DNA of 51,222 nt from Reclinomonas americana ATCC 50394 (taxonomy: Eukaryota), in contig PS015179.1 of NCBI GenBank assembly GCA_048213135.1, forward strand, positions 68,922-120,143, written 5' to 3'. The notes beneath the pieces are model-generated. The model was not told where the DNA came from, made no database searches, and was given only the letters and a program-made list of their open reading frames with translations. The translations under genes and the position numbers were made by a program. Numbering within the stretch: the first letter of the stretch is position 1; every line of letters starts with the position of its first letter. This document shows positions 27,701 to 51,222 of this stretch, in pieces.

Positions 27701-30700
27701 CGCACCGCATACAGAGTGTCGCCAGGCACCACGTTCTGCGACTCCAGCGTCCGTGAGACGTCGGCCAGTGCGCGATTGTCGGCAGTGTGCAGTTGAATCG
27801 ACGGCGCCGTGCTGCTCGGCAGCACTTCGCACGAGGCAATCGCTCGCTGAATGTCTTGCACAGTCGTCTGGCCGGCTGTACAAGCCAAATAGAACAACAG
27901 GGAAACCACATCAGCGATCTCCAATCGCGGCTGCGAGACCATAGAGAGGGAATGTACGCAACGAATAATGGCGCACGCAATGCGGCGTGAGCTCGGAAGG
28001 CACACAAAGACGCGTGGCGGGGCCTCATTGCTCTGCGACACGAAAACAATACAGGAGTCAGTGTGCGCACCGGAGGCAAATGGGCCACAAGAGCGACGAA
28101 ACGAGTGGTGCGGCAACACCGCTGGGGAACTGCAGCACCAGTGGCCGCTCAATGCTCGGCGCGATCTTTGCAATGGCGTCGTCCGGGTGAGCCGGCTCAC
28201 CAGCCACCAGTGCGCGAATGTCTTCCTTGCCCAGCGGCGGTCGCTGAACGCCACCGGCCACGCAGGCTCGGCGAACGACCTCGCCGACAGTGTCGTCGGC
28301 TGCCGCCGGAATGACGTCGCGACGACTGTTGGGATAAACGACCGGCACACTCAGCGGAGCGCGGTGAACGAAGCGTGTCACCGGGATGCGAGCCGTGGGC
28401 TCGTCACGCGCGCGCTGCGTAGGGTGTGAGAAACAAGAAATGTCAGGACAGCGCAGTTTTACAAAGAACAGACCATGGCCGCCAGTGCCGCCGGCTCTGG
28501 CCACGTCTGTGTGTTTTGGGGCGCGCGTAAGCATCTTGGATGGAGAGAGAGAGAGAGAAGGAGAGGGAGAGGGAGAGGGAGAGGGAGAGGAAGAGGAGAG
28601 TGGGGAAGGGGAGAGGGAGAGGGAGAGGGAGAGGGTGAGGGTGAGGGTGAGAGGGAGAGGGTGGAAGGGAGAGGGAGAGGGAGAGGGAGAGGGAGAGGGA
28701 GAGGGAGAGGGAGAGGGAGAGGGAGAGAGGAAAGGAGTGATGCGCCACGCAGCCAACGTACCGCAAACAGCGTGTCACCCGGGCGCACTTGCTCGGCGGC
28801 CAGAGTGCGCTTGGGAGCGGAGAGCACTTGATCGTGGTCGGCCGTCGTGAGAACCAAGTAGGGAGAGTATTCGGACGGCAAGCCCTCGCTGGAGGTGACG
28901 GCGAATTTGACGTCGCCCACCGTGGTTGCCAGCGCTGATATCACCAACGTCGTCAAACAACGGAAGAAGACAAAAACAGGCAGTCAGAACAAACAACTCA
29001 CGTCGCACAGCACACGCCAGTCGGCGGTGACCTGGGAACTCGACAAAAATGCGAGGCGGCGCTTCCGACTACATAGTCCCCATGACGAGTGAGCAAATGA
29101 AAACAGCAGGTTGCACGATGATGGATGGAGGGGACGCACCGATGGTGCCACGTAGCCCGCGGGCCACGAGAGCGCAAGCGGTTGGTCGGGCGTGGCGCCG
29201 GTGCGCCACACTGGGCGCTCGTGAGGAATCTTGGTGTCGTCCACAGACACACGCACAGCGTCCAGCACGGCCGACGACGGCGCCGTCGGTGCGAGACCTT
29301 CCGAAACGTGCACGCGGCGAACCACATCGCGCACCGTGTCATCTTGGGCGCACACCACATTCTCCACACGGCCAGAGGGCAGCAGGACGGGCACGGTGTA
29401 CGTGGCACGATGCACGTAGCGCACCGGCGGGCACGGCAGGGTACGGTCCTGCGTGATGATCAGTGAGCAGCTGAAAGCAAATAGCGGAGAGGGGTGGCAA
29501 GAAACACAGTACGCAACCACAGCCGTGCTCGCAGTGACCGGCCACACCTGCGATATAAGAAAGGAGGAGTTATGTGTCAGCAGCGCACGCGCGTGCATTG
29601 CGAGTACAGCGAAGAGGCACTCACTGCCAGCAGTGTGTCGTTGGGCTCCACGCCCACAGCGTGCAACGACTTGGTGCCGTCCGCCAGCGGTCGATCGCCA
29701 TGATGAAGTGCCAGCGAGCCGGCAGCTTCGGCAGGCAGCGCCTCACTCGAGACGACTGCGTTCTTCACTTGCGACACAGTAGTCTCGCGAGCTATTCAAC
29801 GAAGAAGGGAGTGAGCCAACGAGAAAGAGAGAAAATGGAGAGAGGAACGCACGTGAGACGGCCACAGCAATGCGACGTCCGCCAGGGAAGACCACGTACA
29901 CCAGAGTGGGCTTGTGCACCTGCAGGCGTGACGAAGAGTGTGAGGATGGAGACACGAGAGTCGTGAGGGAGACGCCACACACACACGCAACTGGGGGCGC
30001 CGACTGGCCGGCCGGCCACGCCAGGACCAGAGGATGAGTGCGCGAAGCATCGACGTTCGTGATTGGAGTCATCAGCGGCACTGGAGCGCCACGCAGTGAC
30101 GCCGAAATGCGCGACTGGCCGGGCGGTGGGACAACCACGCCTTCGGCGACACAGACGCGACGGGTGACATCGTCGACCACATCGTCGGCCGCACACGGAA
30201 CCGTGACACGGCGTCCAGACGGCAAGCGGACTGGCACGTTGTGCGCCGGTCGCGTGGCATAGCGCACAGCGAGCACGCGATCGCCTTCGATGGGCGGACC
30301 AAGTGCTTTCGACGGCTACAAAGGACGGGAAGAAATAAGGAAGAGGAGAAGATGCGCAACAGGAGACGACGACGGCGCTTACGAACCAGAATCGGCAGCG
30401 ACGCCGTCGGCCACGACTGGAGAAAGGACTCAAGGTGAGTGCACACCAATTGGAGAACATCAGTGACAGTAAGCAAGAAAGAGAACGCACAGCAAAGAGG
30501 ACGTCATTCGGATTGATGCGGGCGGCGGTAAGCGTGCGGCCGTCTTCGAGAAGCGGACGCTCGCGCGTATCCAACAGCACGGTGCTCGACGCAAAATCGG
30601 CAGGCAGGCCTTCGGCCGCAGTCACTGCGGCTCTGAGACGGCCGACAGTGGTCTCGTTTGCTGCATGCCAAAAAGTCAAAACATATTCGCAAAAATAATG

Positions 30701-33700
30701 TGCGGCACATGTCGTTTCACGCAACGGCGAACGGCACACGCGACACGACGGCCATCGGGAAGCTCGACAAATACGCGAGTCGGAGCCGCCAACTGCGCCG
30801 ACGGGTGAGTGAAACAACATGACCTCTCATAAAACCTACAACTTCCCGACTCACCGGCACCGCCACTGTGGAGGGTGGGAACGAGAGAACCAGCGGATCG
30901 CTCTCTGTGGGCGCCGCCTGCACAATGGGAACCTGGCCGGCCACTGTCGTGCCACGAACCACGGCACCAATGGCGTGGGCGGCAGAGGTGGGCGGCGGTA
31001 CGCCTTCAGCAACACAAACGCGACGAATGACATCGTCGACGCTGTCGTCGGTGGTGGCGGGCACCACTTCGCGGCGGCCAGTAGGCAGTTGCACGGGCAC
31101 TTGGTGGGGATGGCGGTGCACGAAGCGAGTGACGGGCACCGTGGACATGGTGGGGGCGGCGGACACGCCGGCCTGTGGGTGGCGAAAGGGGGGAGGTAAG
31201 GGGAAGGTAAGAGGGAAGATAAGGGGGAGGGGGAAGGGGAAAGGAGAAAGGGGACAGGGGGAAGGGGGTAAAAGGGAAGGGCGGTAAAGTAAAGGGGAAG
31301 AGGGAAAGGGGAAGAGGGAAAGGATGGAGGGCGGAAGATGGAAGGGGGAAGACGGAGAGGAGAAGGGGGAAGGGATGGTCAAGGGACGACGACTCACCGG
31401 TACCGGGACAGTTGCGTGCATTGGCCAGGACTGCGATAAGAGGGGATGGAAGTAAGGGGGCAAACGGGGTGAGCTAGGTAAATGGATAACGAGAGAAGCA
31501 AGACAAGACGCAACAGCCTGGAGAGTATCCCCAGCAGCCACATTGACGGCCTCCAGAGTCTTCTTCGAGTCGTCCAGAGGTCGACCACCGGCTGTGCGCA
31601 GTGACATGGTGCTCACGGCGTTGTCGGGCAGGCCTTCACTTGAGACGACGGCACTCTTGATGCCACCGACGGTGGTGGTGCCAGCTGCATTTTGACGGGT
31701 TGTGAGTCGACAGTGCATCGTAAAAGCGTATTCACATAAAAGAGTACGGAACGTCGAATGGCGCAGGCCACACGTCGGGCGCCAGGCAGCTCGACATACA
31801 CACGAGGTGGGGCAGCTTGCTGCTCAGATGGAAAGAAGTTTAGATTGAGCTAAGCTCCAACCTTCGTCTCTCTTTCTCTCACCTGCGTAGCTCCATACGA
31901 GGGCGGCACGGCAAGCACCAGCGGGTACAACGGTGTCGGCCCAACATGCGCCAGCGGCACATCCAATGGCACATCCTCGCCGTCATACGACACCTGGATC
32001 GGCTCGTCGCCAAACTCGGGAGTCTTCAAGCCCTCGGCCACACACACGCGGCGTGCGACATCGCGGATGGTATCGTCCGTCGACGCAGCCACAGCTTCGC
32101 GGCGGCCACTCGGCAACACCACCGGCACCACTTGCGATGGGCGATAGGCGTAGCGGACAACAGGAATCGGTGTTCCGGGGACCGCAGCCACCGGCGGGGC
32201 GGAGCTTTCTGGCACACCCAGCACACCGGGCTGCACGAGAACGAACAGGTTGAGTGATATGCGTGCAATGCACGACAGGCTGTACAACTCACCTTGCTCG
32301 CCAGCATGTTGAGACGCGGCCACGACTGTTTGACACACAGACGTGTAAGGGAGATGCAAACAAACGCAGCGCAATAGAATGGGTACGAAACAGCAGTCAG
32401 CGTGTTTCCAGGCACCACGCCCACGGCGTTCAGTGTCTTGCGCGGATCGTCGAGTGCGCGGTCGCCAGGGGCACGCAGCAGCACCGCTGCGGCTTTTTCG
32501 GCGGGCAGGCCCTCGCTGGAGGCCACGGCACGCTTCACATCGGCGACCGTCGTCTCGCGAGCTGCAACGAGGAGACGCAAGAGTGAGCGACAAGCAGGCG
32601 AGCAGAAGAGTAAGCAGTAGCAGTGGTACTCAACGCTTGACAGCCACGGCAATGCGGCGACGGTTCGGCAACTCGACATTGATGCGCTCCGGTGCGTCGG
32701 TCTGGTGGCGAGCAACGGTCAGTTTTCCCCAGCATATCGTAAAGAGGAATCACTCTGAAGCGCACCGCGAATGATGCAGAGGGATTGTCCCACTGCAGCA
32801 CCAGCGGCGTCTCGGGTGTGATACCGGCATTGCCGACAGTCACATCCGACGGCACCACGACGCCGTCGACAGAGGTCGTCAGCGGCGGTCCATCGACCGA
32901 TGGCAGAGGCACACCCTCGGCCACAAACACACGACGCACAACGTCGTCCACCGTGTCGTCGGCAGCGGCAGGCACCTGATCGCGGCGCCCGTTCGGCAGC
33001 ACCACTGCAGCAGTGGTTGTCGGACGGAATACGTGGCGAATGACAGGCACGCCCGGCTGTCAAACTTCGAGTGAGCACGCGTCACTAGTGAGCAACAGCA
33101 GAGTTCTACGCAACCTGCTCAACCGAGCGGAAACCGCGGCGCGGGTCGCGCAGGTAGCGGTAGCGCATCACCGGTGCCTTGGAGGAAGGGAGAGCAACGA
33201 CTTGAGGGGGGAGGAGATGTGGGAAGGGGGAAATGAGAGGTTTCTAATCACCTTGATGCGATTTCCGCCGAGAGCAGTCACACCAGCCGGCTGCACCAAA
33301 TTGATTAATGTGCGCACGTGAGTTGGTAATCAATCGATGCGTAGAAGACTGGAAACACAAAGCCGCACCGATACACCGACACGGACATCATCGGGCCAGT
33401 GCTGTGTTATGAGAGAAGTAGTAGAGTGAGACAAAGGAACGTGCTGGGTAGTTGACGGAGAGACGCACCGCGTAGAGACGCGAGTCGGGAACCACGCCAA
33501 CGGCAGCGAGCGGGGCGGCATCGTCGTCAAAGACGTGGTCGTCGGAGCCACGCAAGACAACAGTGTCGGCGAGGACGGCGGGAATGCCTTCGGCACGCAC
33601 CAGATCGTCTTTGACGTCACCAATGGTGCTCTCGTCGGCTGCGATCGATTAGGGGAGAGTTGATGACGCGATTGCTCAATGAATAAAGTGGGGGCGCGTA

Positions 33701-36700
33701 CGCAACGCTTGATGGAGGTGACGACGACACGGTCGCCAGGCAGCACAATGTAGACCACGGGAGCCGCCGTGTGCTGCAAGTGAGGCAAAGTGTGAGTGAA
33801 GGGGAAGGGAGGGGCGCTCAATAGGAGAAGTTGAAGTAACGCGGACACACATACACGCACGACGCACGCACCAACAATCACAGGGCGCACATTCAGACAC
33901 ACGAAAGCATACTGATGAAGGACGCACAGACATCAGGACGCACATACAGACAAAGGACGAAGGACGTACACAGACAAAAGAACCCATGAAGACATCAGGA
34001 CGCATACAGACACACGAACCCATGAAGACATCAGGACGAAAACAGACACGTGAGAGCAGAAACAAATGCACGAACGTGAGCGCAGGATCAAACTGCATGC
34101 ACGCAAAAGAATACATCCGTGAACACAGATACTCGGACGCTGGGACACATGCAAGGAAGTACGAAGCAAAACCTCAGAACTGCAAGCACTCGACAGGCAA
34201 ACAACAACACACAGGTGCACGCCCGTGCACAAACAGCACAGATTCGCATACAGATACACGGAAGTACAAGGCAAGTTCACATAAACGCAATCACACGCAC
34301 AAACGCAAGCACCCCAAGAGAACACACACACACACAGTCACGCTTTCGCAGACATCGAACGCACGCGGAAGCAAGGAATGCACGCGCAAATACAAAGAGC
34401 ACGTTCCCAGAACAAAAAGAAAACGCAACCACTGGAACGGACGAGCCACTGGGCCAGGTCAGCACCAGCGGGTTCTCGGGTGTTGCACCAAGAGTGGCGA
34501 CGACAGTAGCAGGCGGCATGACATCCCCACCCACGGAGGCGCGAACGGCAGGTGCGCCGACTGCCGGCAGTGGCAAGCCTTCGGCGACCGACACACGTCG
34601 CACCACATCCACCACACGATCGTCGTGCGCCACCGGAATTTGCTCGACGCGTCCCGACGGCAGACGAACAGGTACGAGCAGAGGCGGGCGGTACAGGTAG
34701 CGTGCCAAGGGCATACGCACGGTGCGTGGGCACTGCAATCCGCGACGGTCAGCATAAAAAGGAAAGAAACAGGCAGCAGGGGAGAGAGAGAGAGAGAGAG
34801 AGAGAGACGGCGACAGAAAGAAAGAGCTACAGAGAGAGAGAGAGACGAGGAGAAGAACATGTACAGCAACAACAGCAAGAAAGAGAGAGACAGTACGAGA
34901 GAGAGACGAGGAGGTGAACAGCAAGAAAAGCAAGAACAGAAAAATGGCAAGAAAGACAAGAGAGAGAGAGAGAGACAAAGAGATAGAGAGAGAAAAGGAG
35001 ATCAAAAGAGAAAGTGAGAGAAAGACAGAATGAGAGAGTCAGAGTGTGATTGTGGAGGAGAGACAGTACGTTTGTGTGAGAGAGACTATGTGAGCGGAAG
35101 AGTGCAACAAACTGCGAGACAATGCGCCCACACATAAAAAGTGTACTCACCAATGGTTGGCCGTCGGGGTTGCTCTGTGCACACAAGCCACAGCACCAGT
35201 GAATACAAGAGTAACAGATGAGAAGCACGAGTGACGAGTGACGGACGCAACCTGTGTCGGCATGACATGGCGATAGCGAACGACTGGCAACTGGCGCAGG
35301 GTCGGGGCGGTGCTCTGCGACGAAAGAAATACGAGTGAGAAAGTCGCGCAGGCAAGACAACGATGATGACGAGACTCACCGGCATGCCAACGGCAGCAGT
35401 GTCGGGCCACGACTGCAAAGAGAAAGGTGAGCAAAGCAATGTTCGTCACGACAACATGAACGACGACACGCACCGCGTCCAGCATATCACGCGAACGGAT
35501 GCCGGCATCTTGGAGACTCTGCGAGTCGTTGTTCAGCTTGCGCCCGTTGTGGGTCAGCGTCAGCAACTCGGTGGCGTCCTGAGGCAGGCCCTCGGAGCTG
35601 CATGTGGCGTTCTTGACGTGCTGAACGGTTGTGGTGTCAGCTGCGTCAGGTGCTCAAGTGAGTTTGAAGCGAGTGACATGGGATCACTCAAGGGGGAAAC
35701 GCACGATCCACGGCCACGGCAATGACGCGCTTGCTCGGGTATGACACGTAGACAAACGACGGCGATTGGCGCTACAGCGAAGAAAATCTACGTCAGCGAC
35801 CGTACATCAAATCAGGGCGACAAAACAACATACCGTGGGCGCCATGCCTCCAGCAGGCCACGCCAGCGTCAGCGGCTGCTGCTGCGTCACACGCAGCTGT
35901 CCCACTGGCGCCACCGGCGACACTTGGTGTCCGCGCACGGTGGCGATGATTTGCGGCTGGCCGGTTGCAGGCACCGGCACGCCCTCGGCAATGCAAGTGC
36001 GCGCCACCACGTCCTGCACAATATCGTCGGCTGTGCATGGTAGCAAAAGTGTCATTCAGTTTCCAACCTGCACGATGATGAAAGAGACGAGCGACGCAAC
36101 AGCTGGCCGGAATGTCAATGACGCGGCCGCCCACCGACACGGGCACAGTGGTGCCGGGGCGATGCACGTAGACGGCGATGGGAACGGCGATTTCTTGCGG
36201 CTGATGTACGGGGTGAGAGACATGAGGAAAAGAAGGAGGAACAGTGAGAAAGCGCAGTGTCNNNNNNNNNNNNNNNNNNNNGAAGGGGGGTGGGGAAGGG
36301 GGGAGGGGAAGGGGGAAGAGGAAGGGGGAGGAGAAGGGGAAGGAAGAATAAAATGAAGAGGATGAGGGGAAGACGAAGGGGAAGACGAAGGGGGAAGAGA
36401 AAGGGGGAAGAGGAAGGGGGAAGGAGAATGGGGAAGGGGAATGGGGAAGGAGAAGGGGGAAGGAGGAAGGCGGATGGAGAAGAAGGAAGAATAAGGGGAA
36501 GAGAAAGGGGGAAGAGGAAGGGGGGAAGAGAAAGGAAGGAAGAGAAAGGAGGGAAGAGGAAGGGGGAAGAGGAAGGGGGAAAGAGGAAGGGGGAAAGAGG
36601 AAGGGGGAAAGAGGAAGGGGGAAAGAGAAAGGGGGAAAGAGAAAGGGGGAAGACAAGAGGAAGAAGAGGAGAGGAGGAGAGAGAGGAGAGAGTTGTGAGC

Positions 36701-39700
36701 ACACCGTCAACTGCGTCGAAATGGTCGTCGGCCAGTCCTGCACAAACAAAGGACTGTTCAGATGCGTGGCGGGCAACGTGGCAGGTCGATCGGCAGCGAC
36801 GCACGACATAGATTTCGTCCTCCTCCAACACGCCGGCCTCCTCCATCGTCTGCTCGTCGTCACACAGAATGGCGTCCTGACTGGTGAGCATAATCAGNNN
36901 NNNNNNNNNNNNNNNNNCGGTGCCTCGGCCTTGATCTGCTTGGTGCGAGACGGGAATGTCTGCGGAAAGGAGGAAAGGTGTGAGGATAAGTGGTCAGAAG
37001 GCAAAAACATAATCAAACTTCTCTGAGTGAGGGCTGTCTCGCACATGCACTGAGCGGCGCACGGCTCACTCTCTTCCTCTCCCTCCATTTTGGATTGCGA
37101 CTCGTTCAAGCGCGCGAATACACACACGCATGCGCTCGTTTCTCACTGATTCTAACTCTCTTTGAGTCATTGTCTCAATCCGGATCTCTCAAATTCTCAA
37201 CCTAACACGCAAACAATTATTCACCCACATTCACAAATACACACAGTCTTCCTCCCTAACTCGCTCCCTCCTACTTTCTTTCACTGAGTCGCCGTTCTGC
37301 TTTCTCTTCCTCCCCTTCCCTCTTTTTCTCCCTCCGTCCCATCTCTCTGTCACTTCACGAACCAGGTAAATGAGCTTGGTGTTGGAGATGGTGGACAGAC
37401 GATCCGAATCCTTCAGCGTCTTGTTGCTCTGCTTGGCCACAATGGTGCCGGAGGGCGGCGGAATGCCCTCCATCAGCAGCGTGCGCCGCTTCAGGTTGCG
37501 GACGTCGTCGGAGGGCGCCACTGGCACCTCGACTTGTCGCTTGTTCGGCAGCACCACGGTGTAGATATCAGCCGTGCCGTGCACCAGAGGGGCAGCGGAC
37601 GGGCTACCGCTGCCGCTGCCGCTGGGAGGAGCAGCAGCAGAGAGCGACCGGGCGACGGTGGGTGAGGCCTGCGCGATGGGGAAGGTAAGGAGGGCGCAAA
37701 GAGGGGCGAAGGGTGGCAGGCTGTCGAATCACGCACCGCACGACCGCGACGTCGGGGGACACCGGCGACGTTTGCAGGCCATAACTGTGGGCAGGGAGAA
37801 GGGGGAGAAGGGGGAGAACAAAGAGAAGAGATGGAGGGAGGGTCGAGAGTTAAGCTTAGTAATGCGGTTGAATGAAAGTGTGACACGGAGGGCAAGAGCG
37901 AAAAAGGTTATTGACTAGGAACGCCAAGGCGAGGGAGAGACAGAGGGGGAAACAGAGAGAGAAACAGAGGGAGAGACAGAGGGAGAGACAGAGGGGGAGA
38001 CAGAGGGGGAGACAGAGGGAGAGAGAGAAATAGAGAGAAACAGAGGTGAGAGACAGACGAGGGAGAGAGAGATAGAGGTAGAAAGACAGACGAGAGACAC
38101 AAAGAAAGGAGAGAACGCGCGTGCGTGAGAATGAAAGAGTGAGAGAGATGGGGAGAGACAAGAGAAACGAGGGAAAGGAAAATTTACCAGAAAGTGGCAG
38201 GGCGACACGGAGAGAGGGACAGGCGACGGAGAACTGAGAAGCACAAGCTCCAAGACGACGAGCAACGCAACGGCAGTCAAAATGTCCTGATCTTGCACGC
38301 CCGCATCACGCAGTTTGACATCGTCGGCGGGCGCCAACGCGCCGTTCGGCAATCTCAGCACTTGCGACTTGAGGGTGGCTGGCGGCAAGTTTTCGGCGCG
38401 AACCACTCCGCGCTTGATGGTGGCCACTGTGTCCTTGTCCACTGATTGACGGCGAGTGGTTAGAAGAGGGAAGGCTTGAAGGGAGAAAACATCCACACGC
38501 AACAGTCGACTCCGATAGGGACGATGCGCAGGCCGGCCACATCCACGTTCACCGTGTGCGGAGCGCCCGGTGGCGGAGTGCCGCGGGTGGTGGGTGGGAA
38601 GGACTGTGTTGAGGAGAAAGGAGAGGAAAAGGAGGAAGCACGACGATGAGCGAAGCTTGAAACATACGCGAAAAGGAAGATGTCACGGATGCGTGTGAGA
38701 GAATGGACATCAGGCAAAGGGAGCTAAATTAGGAAGGGGCAGACAGTGCACGGAGAGTGCGCAACGAGAGAGCATACTGATCGACTCATCGGTGATGGGC
38801 TCGAAGAAGAACCACGCCACCTTCTGAGAAACACATGGAGAGAGGATAACGACGAGGGAACCGTTGGGAGACGAAACGGCGAAATCGAGACGGTGATGAG
38901 AAGCTACGGGAAAGGGATGGGAGGAGAGATGGGGGTAACACCGCAGGAGAAGTGCACGACTGGGAGCGACAGGAAAAATAGGGAGAGACAGACAGACAGA
39001 CAGACAAACAGAGAGGGAGAGAGAGAGAAAGGCGAGAATTATTCGAAGGAAGGTGCAGAGCAGATAAAGCCAACGAGAGAGACAGAAGCCAGTGCACAGA
39101 AAGTGCGAAACGGGAGAACCAGCACGAAGGGAAGAGGAAAGGAAAATAGAGATGCGGAGATCGTATTGAGCCGTGTCGAGCACAGGTGACAGAACGGAGA
39201 CGGGAGGACAGACAGGAACCAGAGGCAGTGTGAGGAGATAGGGTGAAGGAGAATGCTGAGTGAACGAGGGGGGAGGCGAGGATCTCCAGAATCACTTGAC
39301 GACCACGCACCCCAGCCACTTGATCGCCGGCGGGAATGCCAGCGTCGACGACCATCATCTCGTTCGGCAGCGTGCGACCACCGTGTGAGAGCGACATGTT
39401 GGGCGCCGAGTCCGCCGGCAGTCCCTCTGCCACGCACACGCGACGCTTCACATCCGCAAAGTTTTCGGTGGCTGGAGACGAGAGCGTGAGCACACACAAA
39501 ACAAGAACAAGAAAAGAGGAGCGCCACGAAACGCTTGACGTTGAGTCGCACAGGCGCACGACCAGGAAGCACCACGATGAGCGACCGAGAGTCCATCGGC
39601 TGTGCTCGTCACCGCAGTGAGTGAGTGAGAGGGATGGCAAAGAGGAGTGCNNNNNNNNNNNNNNNNNNNNNNNNNNNNNNNNNNNNNNNNNNNNNNNNNN

Positions 39701-40144
39701 NNNNNNNNNNNNNNNNNNNNNNNNNNNNNNNNNNNNNNNNNNNNNNNNNNNNNNNNNNNNNNNNNNNNNNNNNNNNNNNNNNNNNNNNNNNNNNNNNNNN
39801 NNNNNNNNNNNNNNNNNNNNNNNNNNNNNNNNNNNNNNNNNNNNNNNNNNNNNNNNNNNNNNNNNNNNNNNNNNNNNNNNNNNNNNNNNNNNNNNNNNNN
39901 NNNNNNNNNNNNNNNNNNNNNNNNNNNNNNNNNNNNNNNNNNNNNNNNNNNNNNNNNNAAAGAGAGAGAGAGAGAGAGAGAGAGGTGGATGCAATGTCCG
40001 ATCTCATGTGCCAAAAAGGGAAAGGGCAGAGCAAAGACAACTCCAACGACTCTCGAAAACTAGAGTCGGCAGAGCAATGGGTGCTGTGAAGAGTGCAAAC
40101 GCAACAGGAAGCCGTGCCCGCGACTGCTGATTCATTGGAGGCAT
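15713..40144 (-). CDS. Giant poly-ubiquitin-like (~40 UBL domains) VIT-vWA protein with VWA5A-like C-terminus (highly spliced; 5' end uncertain)
   Basis: Repeated ~75-90 aa units with a beta-grasp pattern (VxVxLPxGR...TVxxVKxxVxxxEGLP...LxLxxxGRxLxDxxTLxxxGVxxGDxLxA) from ~39600 to 19579. Phase-0 splices (19578, 19450) lead into ASPDAPRKRRF..., then VIT (IKQRFQHTGNSVMDVEYVFP), vWA (ELIFILDCSRSM...FNIVKFG...GTRLLPVL...LFLLTDG...RVFTIGIG) and a VWA5A-like tail (WFTAVALAVL...EWRLVANKAARFL), stop at 15713. Start at ATG 40144 (MPPMNQQSRARLP|GTTGCGT) is tentative. Confidence 0.75.
17090..17760 (-). other. vWA domain with intact MIDAS motif (part of the giant gene)
   Basis: DCSRS (DxSxS) at 17719-17733, with the downstream GT and LLTDG residues present. 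Confidence 0.9.
28541..28732. repeat. Intronic polypurine (GAGAGG)n/(GA)n microsatellite
   Basis: Hexamer array directly visible, inside an intron of the giant gene (pyrimidine-rich on the sense strand). Confidence 0.9.
33913..34050. repeat. Degenerate intronic minisatellite, ~36-bp unit containing GAACCCATGAAGACATCAGGACG
   Basis: Core occurs at ~33980 and ~34015, with partial GACATCAGGACG/GGACG copies upstream. Confidence 0.6.
36282..36691. repeat. Intronic G/A-rich low-complexity tract (GAGGAAGGGGGAAA-like units)
   Basis: About 400 bp almost entirely purine on the + strand; similar tracts at ~31190-31375 and ~37930-38180. Confidence 0.85.
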
Positions 40145-42476: not shown

Positions 42477-45400
42477 TTACTTTCTTCGTGGACTGCGTGA
42501 ACCCTTCGGCTGCTGGTGCTGCTGCTGTTGGCGTACAAACTTGATTTGCCAGGCAATCGTTTCCGACACAAGTGGGTGATCGTCTCCCAAAGCGCCCCTG
42601 ATGAGTGGCAGTAGGCTTGAGAGTTCTGATACAGTGTCACTCGGGTCAGCACTCATCGCCACCAGCTGCACTCGAGACCTGAGAGTGTCGACATGCTGCG
42701 GACCGAGAATTTTCGTCCGCAAGGGAATGACTCGCTTCAGGAGACGTTTTGCGTCCTTGAGTCGCCGCGTTGCAAAGAGGCATTGGGCCAGGTTGTTCAT
42801 CGAGTTGAGCGTGGATGGATGTCGTTCACCATACACCTCTGTCTGCGCCTCCACCACACGGCGATGCAGTCGTACAGCCTCCACGTGATCACCTCGCGAC
42901 TTCAAGCACATGGCAAGGCTGTTCATCGAGTCGAGCGTGGATGGATGTCGTTCACCCAACACCTCCGTCTGCATCTCCACCACACGGCGATGCAGTTGCT
43001 CAGCCTCCACGTGATCGCCACGCGACTCCAAGCACGAGGCCAGGTTGTGCATCGAAGAAAGCGTTGATGGATGCCGTTCACCCAACACCTCTGTCTGCAC
43101 CTCCAGCACACGGCGGTGTAGTCGCTCAGCCTCCACGTGATCACCGCGCAGCCCCACGCACAAGGCCAGGTTGTTCATCGAGGCGAGCGTGGATGGATGC
43201 AGTTCACCCAACACCTCTGTCTGCACCTCCAGCACACGGCGATGCAGTCGTACAGCCTTCACGTGATCACCACGCGACCCCAGGCACGAGGCCAGGTTAT
43301 TCATCGAGGTGAGCGTGGATGGATGTCGTTCACCCCACAACTCTGTGTGCCCCTCCACCACGCGGCAGAGCAGTCGCTCAGCCTCCACGTGATCACCGCG
43401 CGGCCACACACACAAGGCCAGATTGCTCATCGAGGCGAGCGTGGATGGATGCCGTTCACCCAACACCTCCGTCTGCACCTCCAGCACACGGCGATGCAGT
43501 CGTACAGCCTCCACGTGATCACCACGCGACTCCAGGCAGGAGGCCAGGCTGTTCATGGAGGTGAGCGTGGATGGATGCCGTTCACCCCACAACTCTGTGT
43601 GCCCCTCCACCACACGGCAGAGCAGTCGCTCAGCCTCCACGTGATCACCGCGCGGCCACACGCACAAGGCCAGATTGCTCATCGAGGCGAGCGTTGATGG
43701 ATGCCGTTCACCCAACACCTCCGTCTGCACCTCCAGCACATAACGATGCAGTTGCTCAGCCTCCACGTGATCGCCACGCGACTCCAAGCACGAGGCCAGG
43801 TTGTGCATCGAAGAAAGCGTTGATGGATGCCGTTCACCCAGCAACTCAGTCTGCACCTCCACCACACGGCGATGCAGTCGTACAGCCTCCACGTGATCAC
43901 CACGCGATTGCAAACACGAGGCCAGAATGCTCATCGAGGCGAGCGTTGATGGATGTCGTTCACCCAACACCTCTGTCTGCACCTCCACCACACGGCTATG
44001 TAGTTGCTCAGCCTCTACGTGACCACCACGTGACTCCAAGCACGAGGCCAGGCTGTTCATGGAGGTGAGCGTGGATGGATGCCGTTCACCCAACACCTCT
44101 GTCTGCACTTGTAGCACACGGCGATGCAGTCGTACAGCCTCCACGTGATCACCACGCGACTGCAAACACGAGGCCAGATTGCTCATCGAGGCGAGCGTGG
44201 ATGGATGCCGCTCACCCAACACCACTGTCTGCACTTCTAGCACACGGCGATGCAGTCGTACAGCCTCCACGTGATCACCACGCGACTGCAAGCACGAGGC
44301 TACATTGTTCATCGAGGTGAGCGTGGATGGATGCCGATCACCTGACACCTCCGTTCTCACTTGCATCACACGGCGATGCAGTCGCTCGGCTTCCACGTGA
44401 TCACCACGCGACTGCAAACACGAGGCCAGGTTGTTCATGGAGGTGAGCGTGGATGGATGCCGTTCACCCAACACTTCTGTCAGTACATCCACCACACAGC
44501 GATGCAGTCGTACAGCCTCCACGTGATCACCACGCGACTGCAAACACGAGGCCAGATTGCTCATCGAGGCGAGCGTGGATGGATGCCGATCACCCAACAC
44601 CTCTGTCTGCACTTCTAGCACACGGCGATGCAGTCGTACAGCCTCCACGTGATCACCACGCGACTCCAGGCAGGAGGCCACGTTGTTCATGGAGGTGAGC
44701 GTGGACGGATGACGTTCACCCAACACTTCTTTCTCCGCCTCCAGTACACGGCGAAGCAGTCGCTCAGCCTCCACGTGATCACCAAGCGACTGCAAACACG
44801 AGGCCAGGTTGTTCATGGAGGTGAGCGTGGATGGATGCCGTTCACCCAACACTTCTGTCAGTACATCCACCACACAGCGATGCAGTCGTACAGCCCCCAC
44901 GTGATCACCACGCGACTCCAGGCACGAGGCCAGGTTGTTCATCGAGGCGAGCGTGGATGGATGCCGTTCACCCAACACTTCTGTCAGCACATCCAGCACA
45001 CGTCGAAGCAGTCGCTCAGCCTCCACGTGATCTCCACGCGACTTCAAGCACGAGGCCAGGTTGTTCATCGAGGCAAGCGTAGATGGATGCCGGTCACCCA
45101 ACACTTCCGTCCTCACTTGCATCACACAGAGATACAGCCGCTCAGCCTCCACGTGATCACCACGCGACTCCAGGCACGAGGCCAGGTTGTTCATGGAGGT
45201 GAGCGTGGACGGATGCCGATCGCCAAGCACGGCTGTCTGCACCTTCAGTACACGGTGAAACAAACTCTCAGCCTCCACAACACGCCCACACTCATCAAGG
45301 CAGTGGGCTTGGAGTAGCTCCATTTTAATACTGTTTTCATCGACAGTCCCGACAAGACTCCTGAGAATGCCAGCAGCATCTGCGTACCGCCGCGAGGCGT

Positions 45401-48400
45401 GCAAAAGATACGCCGCGCACGTGACACGTCGAGCGACAGCATCGTCGTGATCAACAGGAATCGACAATGAATCCAGTGCTGCGATCGCTTCCGCTGCGTA
45501 CGACGCAGGAAACTCGACAGTGGACAGTCGGCCGTGCACCACGTGACATAAACCTTCCAAGCTGTGTGTGAACAACTGAAGCCAGGTATTGTCAACAGTG
45601 CTAGTCCCATGCCACGGAAGTGAAAGTACATGATGCGCGAGTTCAGCCCACAATAATTGCATCATCGGTGATATTGAAGTCAACACCTCGGTGCTGAAAT
45701 CGGCGTCGTGATCGACATCGGAGGTGCAGCCAAGCGCACCATACGCGATACTCGTCAAGCCTCGTCGACACACTGACAGCCCATTAACATCTCCGTCACA
45801 CACTCGACCCTGACAAAGCCACTCGACCACAAGATCGTGCACGCGGTAGTGGCACACATCGCGAACACCAGCTGCATCCCGTTGACACAACAGTTGCAAC
45901 AACTCGTTGCCCGAGCAGTGCGCAGTCATACTGACAATGCCTGACTTGCATAGTGCATCAAGGTCATCGCGAACACCGTCACGTGGAGCGCCCACAGAGA
46001 TCAGCACCTCCAGCTCGCGCCGCAGTTCCAAAATCGCCTCCGCACAGAGTGGGGGAAAGTGATATGGCGCGTCCCGCAACTCTCGATTCTTGATAACAGC
46101 TTGCTGCAACCGTTCGACAAGCCGCGCAAGGGCTGCTTCGCAATCGGCATTCGTAAGCGGCGCACCACCGCAGTCCGGCACTTCGTACACCGACAGCAGC
46201 GTGGCGACCAGTGTTGTCGTTGGCGGTATGCGCATCTCCTGCAGCGCGGCCACCAGCAGCAAAACTTGACGCATCCGGGTCGAACATGCACCAAAGTTGG
46301 ACTGCATCAGACCGGCAAGCGCCACACGATTCTTCTCGTCCAGCAGCCGGACGAGTTCATCGCCCATTAGCAACTCCACGTTGCATCGGATCAATTCGCT
46401 GTACAATTGACATTCAGCGAATGCACTTCGATAATGACTACATACAGCATTCGCAAAGACCGCACCTCAAACACAGTGATGCTCGAAACGCCTGTGGCTT
46501 CAATGACAGCATGTCCGCAACCCTCACGCGCACCTCTGAAGGCGCATGCGAGAGGCGACTGTCAACCAGTTCGACAATATCTGCAGCGTCCACATCGCCC
46601 ACTTCCTCACACAACACACATGCAGACGAGAATGCATGTCGCACGTCATCCGCTACCACCGCGAACCGCGAAGTGATGATAACGAACGGGGCAACAATAG
46701 ATTGATCTGCGAGAGGAAAGCGTATTAATATTGGGAAAAGCAATACCCTCAATGCGGCAAGACTCGACACGTGATACACACCTCGCCGCCTTCCTCGTAC
46801 ATGAGGAGCCAGGAGAGCTGCACTGACCTGCTCCAACGAACCTACGTTGTCCAGAAGCAAAACACCGCGGCTGTCTCGCATCAGTTCACTCAGCCGAATG
46901 CGCATGTTATCAACATCGGATGCACGTGACCACGCTTCAATATCAGAGCGCAGCTGTGCCGCGTCAGCAGGGAAATGCGCTTGAAGCTCGTCTGCGAAGT
47001 CGCGCAAGCATCCGGCCAACATCTCACTGGCCTGATATCCAGCAAAACACAGCATGAGTCTCATATGAATAGAAATCTGGTGATCAACAAACCGCACCGG
47101 TGTGTACAACTGGTGGTCTGCAATATGGCCCCGCATGTCTGCGTAGAGTGCTGAGCCACGCCACAAGCCGGCGCTTTCCATCTCACTGATAATCAGCTCG
47201 GCGAGCATGGTCTTGCCGCTGCCGGCCTCTCCTGTGAGTACCACAATGGCAGGTCGCTCGTCTACAACATACACACACACACACACACACGCACACACAC
47301 ACAGAGGGAGAGAGTGGGAGAGGGAGAGAGGGGGAGAGAAAGAAAGAGAGAGAGACGCACACACATACATCACACTGAGTCAGCAAGCGGAACACTAGAG
47401 CCAGCAAGCAAGCAATAGCAACTCACTGGCTTCAGCGCCCAACATGTGCGCGGCGATGTTGGCGGCCAAGTCACGGCGACGCGGAAACACAAACTGGTTG
47501 ATTGGGCCAACCGTCTTGACTTGAACTTTCGGGCCCAGAGGCGCCGCAGCTGCAGATAAGAAGGCAGCAAGCGCATCAGAAAGCCAGCATTGTTAATGAA
47601 AAACACACCCAATGCACCTCGCCGAATCTCATCTAGTTGCTCCACAAAGCTTTCGGTATCCGCAGCGGGCAAGTCGAGTTGACGGAGCTTCGCCGCAATC
47701 TCGCCTTCGCTGGAACCGTCACCAAGCAAGCGCACAAGATCAGCGCGATCCAACTCTGGCTTCTCGTGGCTAAGAGGATTGCGCAAGTCACTGCGGAGCC
47801 ACCCGACAGCATCGCGCTGCATGAAGAAAAGTGGAGAAAGTGAGTTCACTCTCTCCAGGATCCGCAGTGGGGAAAGCGCAGGAATTTGCAGGGATGATCC
47901 AGCACAGTGCGATGCTCGAGGACGTCTTCATGAGCACACACCTGAATGGGATCGTCAAGCATGCGAACCACTGCGCCCGCCGGTGTCTCGTAGTGTGCAC
48001 CAAGAGCCAATGCCGCCAGCGCAGTCGTGTCCAACTCGTCACACGATGGCTCCGCAGTGCCCGCCATCAAAGTGGCATGCCACGCGTCGAATAGAGGGTG
48101 GTGGTGATTGCCTCGAATCATTACGAAGAACTCGCCACTGACATGGCAACTGCGAACAGAGACCACATCAACGGTGTGTGAGTGAGCGAGTCGGCAGCGC
48201 ACACTGAGAAAGAGTCAGGCACACACTCACCGTTTGTCACGCTTGTTTTCGGCCTTCTTCCACTCCTGCATCAACCACAGACCAGTGTCTCGGTGGCACT
48301 GGAGAACGAATGGCGGAAGCAAGTGCTGCACCAAAGAGCGCAGGGCGGCAGTGGCCACGCGGCGTTGTGCCTTGGTGACGCGCCAAAAGTTGGATCTGCG

Positions 48401-48490
48401 AGAGTGAGAGAGTGAGAGAGAAGTGAGAACAGGCGTGTGCTGGCAGAAGCACAGCGGCACACACAACTCCTTGTCGGTGAGCAGCGGCAT
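42477..48490 (-). CDS. NLR-like STAND protein: N-terminal HEPN-like domain, NB-ARC-like NTPase, kinesin-light-chain-type TPR array (spliced)
   Basis: Start MPLLTDKE|SNFWRVTKAQRRVATAALRSLV; ELDTTALAAL; LRSDLRNPLSH (RNxxxH at 47766-47783); Walker A IVVLTGEAGSGKT (~47207-47245); Walker B GVLLLDNV; VIITSR sensor motif; intron 46465-46399 joins the final 3.9 kb exon carrying 20 HPSTL-type 42-aa repeats; stop TAA at 42477. Confidence 0.85.
42780..45290 (-). repeat. 126-bp coding tandem repeat: 20 near-identical TPR units (two further degenerate units follow)
   Basis: CACGTGATC recurs at a 126-nt period from ~42882 to ~45150 (one variant copy at ~44016); consensus LGERHPSTLxSMxNLASCLxSRGDHVEAxRLHRRVLEVQTEV. 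Confidence 0.97.
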
Positions 48491-49773
48491 GGCAGAAGAA
48501 AGATAAGTTGTGTGTGCGCGCGACTTTGCAATTCAATGCACAAGGGGGACGACGCAGACAAGGACGCGGTTCAAACCCGGCAACCACTGACAACATTTAT
48601 ACCCGACAACGAACACCCTTCGACGTCTGCTGTTCCTGCCCGATGCAGCGCGATGTACCGTTTTATACTCCGACGCCAACACAATCAAGCGTTTGGCACC
48701 GTACGCGTGCGAAGGTCGGAATGAATGAGTGACAGGACAACCACCAAGTCTCAACTCATAACTCCAAGCAACGCTGCTGCTGCTGCTGGCAAGTCTCCGT
48801 CGCTGAGAGAGATAGCACTGCTTGTCCCNNNNNNNNNNNNNNNNNNNNNNNNNNNNNNNNNNNNNNNNNNNNNNNNNNNNNNNNNNNNNNNNNNNNNNNN
48901 NNNNNNNNNNNNNNNNNNNNNNNNNNNNNNNNNNNNNNNNNNNNNNNNNNNNNNNNNNNNNNNNNNNNNNNNNNNNNNNNNNNNNNNNNNNNNNNNNNNN
49001 NNNNNNNNNNNNNNNNNNNNNNNNNNNNNNNNNNNNNNNNNNNNNNNNNNNNNNNNNNNNNNNNNNNNNNNNNNNNNNNNNNNNNNNNNNNNNNNNNNNN
49101 NNNNNNNNNNNNNNNNNNNNNNNNNNNNNNNNNNNNNNNNNNNNNNNNNNNNNNNNNNNNNNNNNNNNNNNNNNNNNNNNNNNNNNNNNNNNNNNNNNNN
49201 NNNNNNNNNNNNNNNNNNNNNNNNNNNNNNNNNNNNNNNNNNNNNNNNNNNNNNNNNNNNNNNNNNNNNNNNNNNNNNNNNNNNNNNNNNNNNNNNNNNN
49301 NNNNNNNNNNNNNNNNNNNNNNNNNNNNNNNNNNNNNNNNNNNNNNNNNNNNNNNNNNNNNNNNNNNNNNNNNNNNNNNNNNNNNNNNNNNNNNNNNNNN
49401 NNNNNNNNNNNNNNNNNNNNNNNNNNNNNNNNNNNNNNNNNNNNNNNNNNNNNNNNNNNNNNNNNNNNNNNNNNNNNNNNNNNNNNNNNNNNNNNNNNNN
49501 NNNNNNNNNNNNNNNNNNNNNNNNNNNNNNNNNNNNNNNNNNNNNNNNNNNNNNNNNNNNNNNNNNNNNNNNNNNNNNNNNNNNNNNNNNNNNNNNNNNN
49601 NNNNNNNNNNNNNNNNNNNNNNNNNNNNNNNNNNNNNNNNNNNNNNNNNNNNNNNNNNNNNNNNNNNNNNNNNNNNNNNNNNNNNNNNNNNNNNNNNNNN
49701 NNNNNNNNNNNNACGCGTACGCAGCGTCCATTTTGTCAGAGACAACTAAACTCTTGTTCGTCACAGGTGAGCC

Positions 49774-51222
49774 ATGGCTGCTGTGGTGGTGAACGCTGAT
49801 GAGATACACGTTGACGCAGCTGTCGAGGGGAGAGCCGACGCGGGTCCTCCGATCTGGGTGCAACGGCGGCATTGGAGGCATCTTGCACGCGCGTCCGCGA
49901 TGGTGGTGAGTGAGAGAGAGAGAGTGAGAGAGAGAGAGAGAGAAGAAAAGGGAAAGAGAATGAGAGAGGGGAGTGCAAGGTGTGGAGGAAGAGGCGAGAC
50001 ACTGTGGTTTAAATCACATTGTTGTCTGACGACGACGTCACTCTTGCACACGCGTACACGGTTTGGCTGTTGCAGTCCATGCTCTCTCAACTGTGGCCTG
50101 TTTTGTCCTCTTAAGCTAGATCTTGCTGTGTGCGCGTGTCGCTGCGCTCATGATCTTGTGCACCAATTCTCTTCGCAGATTATCCTTCGTTGATATCCAG
50201 TCATCTCTTGACCTGGTGTGCCCTCTTGCTGTCCGCGCGTCTCTCGATTCATTTCAGCGCTGTCCATGTGCCTTTTCACTCTCTTTGCAGTTATTTGATA
50301 TGCTTCTCGACCTGGTGTGCCATTTTTCGGTGCAGATCAACCACCCTTGCAATATCACTCTGATTTGCTCTCGCACACTCTGCCTGCGGCCGTCGCAGTC
50401 CATCCTCTCTTCATATCGCTGTGCCCTCTTGTTGTGCATCGACTTACGTGGTCTCTCAGTTCACACCACCCTTGCAGTGTCACTTTCTTTCACTTTCACA
50501 CACTCTGCTGTTGGCTGATGCAGACCATCCTCTCTTCATTCGTGGGCTTGTCTCTCAATCCACACTTCGCTGCCTGTGGCCTCCTCGCTCATGGTCTCTA
50601 CGGTGGTGTTCTGTTCATCTTTCACAGACGTATTGTCGTGTGTGGCCTGGTGGGCCTTCTTGTTGTTGTGGTTTCTCAATCCACACGTTGCCTCTCTGTG
50701 CAGATTGGCGACACATGGTACGTGGTGGAGATTCGGTGGTTTCGCCGATTCAAGGAGTACGCCAAGGTCAACAGCGCGGATGATGACGACAGAACCAACA
50801 GCTGGTTCGTGTTGCGTGTTGCGGAGGTCAGCATGGGCCGAAGTTACAATGTGTACATCCGCAGTGCACCCCGGCCCGATCGCAAACGACAACATCGTTC
50901 GAAGTGTCGAGGCTGATGGGTACGTGGTGCTGAAGCGGCAACTCTTTGATACCCTCGACTACACTCTTGTCAGCGAGCAGCAATGGGCAGCGTTGTGTGG
51001 ATGGTGAGCAGTGCGTCGACTTTTTTTGGTATTGCATGTTGCGATTGGTCTCATGATTGGTTGTGACCGCACAGGTACGGCGGTGGTCCGACTATCGCTC
51101 GTCAGGTGATTCCCAGGGGAATCCGCCGTACACCACAAGTTGAGGTGTACCCAGTGGTGCTCACGGTCACTGTGTCCACGAATTTGGCTGCCGCGGAGGC
51201 CGGAGGTCGCTCCGCACCACTT
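49774..51222 (+). CDS. Probable ubiquitin-specific protease, USP4/11/15-like, N-terminal DUSP domain (spliced, 3'-partial)
   Basis: IGDTWYVVEIRWFRRFKEY (from 50704), HPGPIANDNI, LKRQLFDTLDYTLVSEQQWAALCGW|YGGGPTIARQVI, QVEVYP match the DUSP pattern. Putative first exon 49774-49905 (donor GTGAGT, phase 0). The catalytic domain would lie beyond the window. Confidence 0.8.

What the first reader, a model, noticed from the sequence alone, without database searches (positions are those of the whole stretch)
47600..48490. HEPN-like RNase effector at the N-terminus of a STAND-TPR (NLR-like) receptor
Seen: spliced N-terminus SNFWRVTKAQRRVATAALRSLV … ELDTTALAALAL … RDAVGWLRSDLRNPLSHEKPEL, upstream of intact Walker A (GEAGSGKT) and Walker B (LLLDNV). 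Known: R-x4-H (often RNxxxH) is the HEPN RNase active-site motif; the N..R…ALR / D.T.L / RN..H layout resembles the DZIP3-like HEPN family found on invertebrate NLR-like proteins; effector-STAND-TPR is the layout of fungal NLRs and bacterial Avs defence proteins. Inference: a ligand-activated, oligomerisation-dependent RNase, i.e. a candidate innate-immune or abortive-infection receptor in a microbial eukaryote.
Basis: partly seen in the sequence, partly recalled or inferred. Interest (0 to 1): 0.75.

Follow-up and report, generated by a model that had tools for sequence, protein, structure and literature searches.

The report
RNase-headed NLR with dead-headed cousins
An intact, predicted nine-exon gene of an unidentified eukaryote encodes an immune-receptor-style switch protein whose front end is likely an RNA-cutting (HEPN) domain, a layout already known from animals and bacteria, but here greatly expanded and with a large sister group that has lost the predicted cutting residues.

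Summary
A nine-exon minus-strand model (48490-42477, eight GT-AG introns, 1764 aa, no internal stop) places RNPLSH at aa 144-149, then Walker A, Walker B, a winged helix with an HD motif, and 20 TPR repeats. Splice sites are supported by conservation in paralogues; no RNA run was listed.

The head is probably HEPN, but of the Swt1/CXorf38 type rather than DZIP3. A family profile aligns colinearly with bacterial Swt1-like HEPNs (HHalign 64%, E 6.5e-5; controls E 0.25-0.5). R, N and H are kept in 59, 58 and 59 of 61 homologues, with dN/dS about 0.2. No Pfam HEPN cut-off is reached, fold searches are only suggestive, and RNase activity is untested.

The same head gives about 150 scored matches in a NACHT-WD40 family. 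A derived sister clade (29 of 40 further loci) lost the motif yet stays under purifying selection.

HEPN-STAND-repeat proteins were described in 2013, and this scan noted this family repeatedly on other DNA of the same genome. Verdict: new variant of a known kind, interest 0.4.

The parts
48468..48490 (-). Exon 1 (start codon, 8 codons; donor GT at 48467)
   Evidence: start and donor position conserved in paralogues
48231..48395 (-). Exon 2: predicted HEPN helix 1 and start of an insert
   Evidence: 16 matches in the genome
47942..48149 (-). Exon 3: rest of the insert, conserved W, P-x-C and D103 (ELDTT), predicted helix 2
47618..47816 (-). Exon 4: predicted helix 3 ending in RNPLSH (47783-47766, aa 144-149), then the closing helices
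47427..47549 (-). Exon 5: linker and pre-P-loop segment
47098..47261 (-). Exon 6: Walker A GEAGSGKT (47232-47209)
46782..47031 (-). Exon 7: Walker B LLLDNV (46860-46843)
46466..46706 (-). Exon 8: sensor-1-like IITSR (46680-46666) and start of the helical domain
   Evidence: motif name recalled
45225..46398 (-). Exon 9, first part: predicted winged helix with YRVHD (45848-45834, MHD-like) and a helical arm
42705..45224 (-). Exon 9: 20 TPR repeats at an exact 42-aa period; the first 19 are 85% identical to each other in DNA
42477..42704 (-). Exon 9 end: capping segment, short polyQ, polybasic tail and stop codon

Best explanation
The gene encodes an NLR-type STAND protein (NB-ARC-like ATPase, predicted winged helix, 20 TPR repeats) whose N-terminal 200 residues are likely a divergent Swt1/CXorf38-type HEPN RNase that would be switched on when the receptor oligomerises. 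Shown here: the open spliced reading frame with conserved splice sites, the motifs, homology of the head across two receptor chassis, purifying selection, and repeat-number variation. Inferred from how STAND proteins and HEPN enzymes are known to work: (1) the TPR array holds the switch shut until it binds a foreign or non-self ligand; (2) nucleotide exchange drives oligomerisation; (3) this pairs HEPN heads so that two RNxxxH motifs form one composite active site; (4) cellular or viral RNA is cut, giving growth arrest or death of the infected cell. My odds are about 0.85 for the HEPN fold, 0.65 for catalytic activity, and 0.6 for the whole mechanism in defence or non-self recognition.
For: The head is homologous to the single-exon head of the NACHT-WD40 family (HMM 48.8 bits against a best of 4.2 among 200 shuffles; HHalign 99.2%, E 2e-19). 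The combined 61-sequence profile aligns with 22 bacterial Swt1-like HEPNs over 123 columns, matching helix 1, the D-x-x-A-L segment and the motif helix in order (64%, E 6.5e-5); DinB, hemerythrin and Abi_2 controls gave E 0.25-0.52. With the motif helix removed, helix 1 alone still scores 23.7 (E 0.002), above the best of 100 column shuffles, 19.7. HEPN models lead the weak hits: HEPN_Swt1 in 22 of 49 homologues, CARF_HEPN in 23 of 49, DUF4559 in 7 of 7 motif exons from other TPR-type paralogues, best E 2.2e-5. The AlphaFold model of a paralogue head (pLDDT 89.6) puts R143, N144 and H148 at the end of helix 130-148, where HEPN motifs lie (PMC3710099, passages). The HEPN toxin AbiF gives the longest alignment among the Z>=5.7 rows (144 of 196 residues, Z 5.7, rmsd 4.1). 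R, N and H are kept in 59, 58 and 59 of 61 sequences, and 12 of 12 TPR-type. Head dN/dS is 0.10-0.23 in 10 pairs. The HD motif is invariant in 47 of 47 STAND bodies, and winged-helix chains match model residues ~37-218 (Z 6.2-6.9). TPR number is 20 here and 27 in the closest paralogue, with variation concentrated at a few positions such as 9, 12, 13 and 19, as in fungal NLRs (PMC4986451, passages).
Against: No HEPN Pfam model reaches its cut-off (best 24.6 of 27 bits for DUF4559 and 19.5 of 27.5 for Swt1). The window's own exons gave no HEPN hit, nor did the exon 3-4 read-through of its closest paralogue. The TPR-type profile alone matches Swt1 only at 4%, E 0.0095. The Swt1 set was chosen with the same Pfam model that gave the first weak hits, so it is not fully independent. 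Most of the HHalign score is local: 3 of 100 block shuffles reach it, and masking R, N and H drops it to 23.4. Foldseek found nothing at E<=1e-3, and unrelated helical bundles outrank the HEPNs (top Z 7.9). The Atlas recognition value of 2157 was under its 2300 mark. The folded head is a paralogue's, not the window's. This copy has a proline inside the motif and a one-residue insertion just before it, both or one shared only with its two closest relatives. A large sister clade is conserved without the motif, so this chassis does not need catalysis. There is no functional data.
Confidence: 0.6

Rival explanations
1. The head is HEPN-derived but in this gene works without cutting RNA, as an RNA-binding or oligomerisation/adaptor module; the receptor signals through a partner.
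For: 29 of 40 further loci examined lack RNxxxH, 28 of these 29 show an intact Walker A in the fetched stretch, and their exon 4 is conserved (dN/dS 0.16 over 24 loci). This copy has a proline in the motif. Inactive HEPNs are described as RNA binders (PMC3710099).
Against: R, N and H are invariant in all 14 TPR-type paralogues whose alignment covers the motif and nearly so in the distant NACHT family, which fits selection on catalysis.
Confidence: 0.2
2. The protein is an RNase-armed receptor, but for self/non-self recognition between cells of the same species or for programmed death in the life cycle, not for pathogen defence.
For: Near-identical internal repeats with variable number and a few variable positions are the pattern of fungal NLRs, some of which control incompatibility (PMC4986451).
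Against: A family of hundreds of matches on two chassis suggests many different ligands, as in pathogen arms races. This is inference.
Confidence: 0.12
3. The head is an unrelated, lineage-specific helical bundle, and RNxxxH is a structural helix cap that only mimics the HEPN motif.
For: No cut-off is reached, fold Z-scores are under 8, no outside homologue was found among 1.84 billion representatives at E<=0.001, and the motif is common by chance.
Against: Helix 1 matches Swt1-like HEPN without the motif helix, three segments align in order, and Pfam, PADLOC, the Atlas and the fold search all lean to HEPN families.
Confidence: 0.08

Closest known systems
CXorf38-type HEPN fused to NACHT in cephalochordates and cnidarians (Swt1-like group; PMC3710099, passages read)
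   Same: RNxxxH head on a STAND NTPase. DUF4559 gives the best Pfam hit on TPR-type motif exons (DUF4559 = CXorf38 is recalled). An upstream conserved Asp recalls the D134-H167 dyad proposed for CXorf38 (10.64898/2026.05.28.728550, passages).
   Different: Below the Pfam cut-off; the chassis is NB-ARC-like plus TPR rather than NACHT plus DEATH; no dsRBD; the host appears not to be an animal (inferred, lineage not determined).
Bacterial Swt1-like HEPN proteins: the Ava_2192 group and HEPN-STAND-TPR-S1 fusions such as Npun_F6454 (PMC3710099 Table 1)
   Same: Colinear profile match to 22 bacterial PF18731 domains. A HEPN + STAND + TPR order is listed in that table.
   Different: Longer insert after helix 1; intron-split; no S1 domain. 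The paper says that the eukaryotic Ava_2192 transfers (Naegleria, dictyostelids, Daphnia) are solo domains, whereas these are receptor-fused. I did not compare with Npun_F6454 itself.
DZIP3/hRUL138-like HEPN-NACHT proteins of bivalves (PMC9646362, passages read)
   Same: Expanded HEPN-headed NLR repertoire (more than 50 in pearl oyster), with TPR or WD40 sensors and an RNx3H motif.
   Different: No PF18738 match here. 194 of 202 oyster domains keep the motif, whereas a large clade here has lost it.
Fungal NB-ARC-TPR and NACHT-WD40 NLRs with highly conserved repeats (PMC4986451, passages read)
   Same: The same NOD-repeat pairings, one head on both chassis, 42-aa TPRs with high internal identity and variable number.
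   Different: HEPN was not among the effector domains in the passages I read; I did not read the whole paper.

Membership tests
HEPN superfamily | R-[NDH]-x3-H motif, conserved in the family | tested here: met
   RNPLSH aa 144-149; R 59/61, N 58/61, H 59/61
HEPN superfamily | Motif at the end of helix 3 of an all-alpha domain | tested here: met
   Model of paralogue L051: helix 130-148 ends at H148; the window's own head was not folded
HEPN superfamily | Structural match to solved HEPN domains | tested here: inconclusive
   AbiF Z 5.7, rmsd 4.1, 144 aligned; Csm6 Z 5.8, rmsd 6.6, 121 aligned; two Cas13 and AF0298 in the top 50, but unrelated bundles reach Z 7.9
HEPN superfamily | Profile-profile homology beyond the motif | tested here: inconclusive
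   64%, E 6.5e-5, 123 columns; helix 1 alone E 0.002, but 3 of 100 block shuffles reach the full score
HEPN superfamily | Metal-independent RNase activity from a composite dimer site | not testable with these tools
   needs biochemistry
DZIP3/hRUL138-like HEPN (PF18738) | Match to the family profile at its cut-off | tested here: not met
   0 of 49 single-exon heads at E<=0.1; 0 of 15 pieces; genome best E 0.6
Swt1-like HEPN (PF18731) / DUF4559 (PF15112) | Match to the family profile at its cut-off | tested here: not met
   best 19.5 of 27.5 bits and 24.6 of 27 bits on a single exon; 0 over cut-off in the genome. Filed as a relative, not a member
STAND NTPase, AP-ATPase/NB-ARC-like | Walker A, Walker B and sensor-1 motifs in order | tested here: met
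   aa 250-257, 352-357, 387-391; AAA_22 over cut-off; Atlas neighbours AAA_16, NB-ARC and NACHT
STAND NTPase, AP-ATPase/NB-ARC-like | Winged helix ending in an MHD-like HD motif | tested here: met
   H187 and D188 invariant in 47 of 47; beta-hairpin in the model; winged-helix matches Z 6.2-6.9. No solved NLR appeared; the MHD label is recalled
STAND NTPase, AP-ATPase/NB-ARC-like | Pfam NB-ARC at cut-off | tested here: inconclusive
   17.4 of 23.5 bits on a read-through that still contains two introns
NLR-like receptor | C-terminal superstructure-forming repeats | tested here: met
   TPR_12 E 1e-265; 20 repeats of 42 aa
NLR-like receptor | Ligand-triggered oligomerisation and defence phenotype | not testable with these tools
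   needs experiments

The most novel reading that the evidence does not exclude
This eukaryote runs an RNase-resistosome network. A small clade of STAND-TPR receptors with active HEPN heads (this gene) and a larger, derived clade with dead but conserved heads co-assemble. The dead-headed ones act either as sensors that recruit the active RNase or as brakes that poison its composite site, which would be a sensor/helper NLR logic built on a HEPN RNase outside animals and plants.
Probability: 0.12. Interest if true: 0.75.

Novelty: new variant of a known kind. Interest (0 to 1): 0.4.

Why it matters
HEPN-headed NLRs are predicted in animals and bacteria, but my four literature searches (listings and selected passages only) turned up no direct test of an NLR switching on a HEPN RNase. 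This family offers intact genes, single-exon heads that are easy to express, and a natural motif-less control clade. It could therefore make that question testable, and it extends large HEPN-NLR repertoires to a eukaryote with no sequence relatives of this head in the searched collections. The design itself is not new.

Tried and rejected
RNA support: no RNA holder was listed for 45300-48700; this is no evidence either way.

Homodimer prediction of the paralogue head: no answer, score 0.00, alignment not used; not evidence.

Outside homologues of the head: none among 7995 scored longer candidates, none among 1.84 billion representatives at E<=0.001, and no PDB sequence match better than E 1.5. 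A near-length word search was not run.

Foldseek of the head and of the STAND arm gave nothing at E<=0.001. No NLR structure was listed for the arm.

The alternative donors 48464 and 47608 were disfavoured by paralogue comparison.

The idea that the single-exon NACHT heads are retrocopies was set aside. Earlier notes describe upstream ubiquitin-like exons, and L020 and L078 carry an intron at the same Q|R site. It was not tested further.

Lineage: no chlorophyll a/b-binding match was found (weak, as the genome is fragmented and intron-rich). The thymidylate synthase search returned one intronless hit and was uninformative. The lineage remains undetermined.

The Abi_2 control had only 5 sequences and did not match, although AbiF is the best-covering fold hit.

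The careful tree did not finish; the quick tree was used. Its labels for some rows were carried over from the same gene, and 11 of 47 rows were unlabelled.

Head-to-head pairing of motif-bearing and motif-less genes was not seen in the contig lists; this was not tested systematically.

Supplements were not read. Additional file 1 of PMC3710099 may list closer relatives.

Full report
Gene model. The finding lies on the minus strand. Nine exons joined by eight GT-AG introns of 66-165 bases give 1764 residues with no internal stop. No RNA run was listed, so I tested the splice sites by comparison within the genome (108 Mb, 16,441 contigs). The acceptor directly before the RNxxxH exon is present in 14 of 14 paralogues. 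The Q|GT donor of intron 3 is present in 13 of 14 genes examined, the window included. Intron 6 reads through in the window but holds a stop in the closest paralogue, which favours splicing. The closest paralogue (contig C26) is 88% identical over 2.5 kb and bridges the upstream N gap in about 20 bases, so the head is very probably the true N-terminus.

The body. Walker A (aa 250-257), Walker B (352-357) and a sensor-1-like IITSR (387-391) lie in exons 6-8. Pfam gives AAA_22 above cut-off and NB-ARC and NACHT below it, on a read-through that still holds two introns. The first part of exon 9 has no NCBIfam match but about 100 matches in the genome. In an alignment of 47 of these, the H and D of YRVHD are invariant. 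The AlphaFold model (pLDDT 83.8) matches winged-helix proteins over residues ~37-218 at Z 6.2-6.9, though no solved NLR was listed. From recalled knowledge this is the NB-ARC/AP-ATPase pattern. Twenty TPRs follow at an exact 42-residue period, 85% identical in DNA; the closest paralogue has 27. Positions 9, 19 and 29 show more non-synonymous than synonymous difference in a pooled count, which is not a formal test. Fungal NLR TPRs behave this way (PMC4986451, passages).

The head belongs to a large family. Exon 4 gave 60 matches at E<=1. Some lie in long open frames encoding NACHT, pentapeptide and WD40 domains. One such single-exon head found 159 matches from 150 scored candidates, a lower bound that may include uncollapsed haplotypes. 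An HMM of 49 of them scores the window's spliced head at 48.8 bits, against at most 4.2 for 200 shuffles. HHalign of the two subfamilies gives 99.2%. So one head sits on both NB-ARC-like-TPR and NACHT-WD40 chassis. No outside homologue was found.

Is it HEPN? For: HEPN_Swt1 is hit weakly by 22 of 49 heads and CARF_HEPN by 23 of 49. DUF4559 is hit by 7 of 7 motif exons from other TPR-type paralogues, best 24.6 bits against a cut-off of 27. Atlas neighbours include sets with Swt1 (20% of members), DUF4559 (11%) and DZIP3 (11%). I collected 22 bacterial PF18731 domains over the cut-off from 552 genomes (partial matches were left out), with DinB, hemerythrin and Abi_2 control sets. The 61-sequence family aligns with Swt1 over 123 columns at 64%, E 6.5e-5, with helix 1, the D-x-x-A-L segment and the motif helix in order; the controls give E 0.25-0.52. 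Helix 1 alone still matches at E 0.002. The model of a paralogue head (pLDDT 89.6) ends helix 130-148 with the motif. AbiF aligns over 144 of 196 residues (Z 5.7, rmsd 4.1), with Csm6, two Cas13 chains and AF0298 also in the top 50. PMC3710099 groups AbiF, Swt1-like and CXorf38 in one Abi2/Swt1 block and lists DZIP3 apart (passages).

Against: no cut-off is reached. The window's own exons and its closest paralogue's read-through give no HEPN hit. The TPR-type profile alone reaches only 4%, and 3 of 100 block shuffles reach the full score. Foldseek finds nothing significant, and unrelated bundles score higher Z. I put the HEPN fold at about 0.85, as a relative of the Swt1/CXorf38 group and not DZIP3 (PF18738 was negative).

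Is it active? R, N and H are kept in 59, 58 and 59 of 61 sequences, and an upstream Asp in 60 of 61; 23 columns in all reach 90%. Head dN/dS is 0.10-0.23 in ten pairs, against 0.29-0.40 for the STAND arm in two pairs. This copy and its closest paralogue carry a proline inside the motif, and the three closest genes share a one-residue insertion before it. That may reduce activity, although distortions at this helix end are described for HEPNs.

A motif-less sister clade. I fetched 40 further loci, chosen from the weaker matches, so this is not an unbiased census. Of the 40, 29 lack the motif, 5 have RNxxxH, 3 have Rx5H and 3 gave no exon-4 hit. 28 of the 29 show an intact Walker A in the fetched stretch. 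Those inspected keep recognisable exons 2-4, and exon 4 has dN/dS 0.16 over 24 loci. In a quick tree of the STAND arm, the window lies in a 10-row branch (support 100) whose 6 labelled rows all keep the motif. The other branch holds all 29 rows labelled motif-less, plus L257, which keeps it. Since the NACHT family also keeps the motif, the loss is most simply derived. None of the 16 earlier notes shown to me mentions this clade in the lines displayed.

Mechanism. By analogy with STAND receptors and with HEPN enzymes, whose active site forms from two motifs (10.64898/2026.05.28.728550, passages), ligand binding at the TPRs would trigger oligomerisation and pair the heads into an RNase. Every step after the anatomy is inferred.

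Novelty. HEPN fused to STAND and TPR in bacteria, and CXorf38- or DZIP3-type HEPN fused to NACHT in animals, are listed in PMC3710099. The pearl oyster has more than 50 HEPN-NACHT genes (PMC9646362, passages). PMC13581612 and PMC8195603 (passages) mention HEPN only in passing. Searches listed no paper on this family or on a tested HEPN-NLR; I saw listings only for papers not named here. The scan's own notes record this family many times in the same genome, including a 27-repeat gene that fits my C26 paralogue. This is a new variant of a known kind. The added value is the better family placement and the dead-headed clade.

Noticed in passing
G000, many contigs; e.g. L220-L255, L014, L015, L026-L028: Large clade of STAND-TPR paralogues whose head lacks RNxxxH but is conserved (dN/dS 0.16), often several to a contig (C341, C195, C476).
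   Followed up: partly
L017-L019, L029-L077: The same head on NACHT-pentapeptide-WD40 genes, about 150 scored matches, with the head on a single exon; L020 and L078 instead have an intron at the same site as the TPR-type genes.
   Followed up: partly
window 42477-42506 (minus): A polyQ then polybasic tail is shared with the two closest paralogues; a GT overlaps the last codon and stop in all three and could be a donor to a further exon. No convincing CaaX exon was found.
   Followed up: partly
window 48829-49912 and L021:484-1830: The closest paralogue shares the upstream neighbour region at 91% identity and lacks about 1 kb spanning the N gap, so the gene lies in a segmental duplication.
   Followed up: partly
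window ~50500-51222 (plus): Exons that resemble a ubiquitin-specific protease DUSP domain (recalled resemblance, no tool check).
   Followed up: no
window ~20000-40000 (minus): A very long intron-rich gene that appears to be built of many diverged ubiquitin-like repeats (seen in ORF translations).
   Followed up: no
window ~16400-19300 (minus): VIT/vWA-like exons (DCSRSM motif), possibly the 3' part of the ubiquitin-like repeat gene; recalled resemblance.
   Followed up: no
window ~8700-15400 (plus): A gene that resembles soluble adenylyl cyclase-type proteins (cyclase-like region, degenerate P-loop, helical repeats); recalled resemblance.
   Followed up: no
L264 (G000:C1:397305-398111): The only thymidylate synthase match is intronless and on the first contig, which may point to a bacterial or viral sequence in the assembly.
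   Followed up: no
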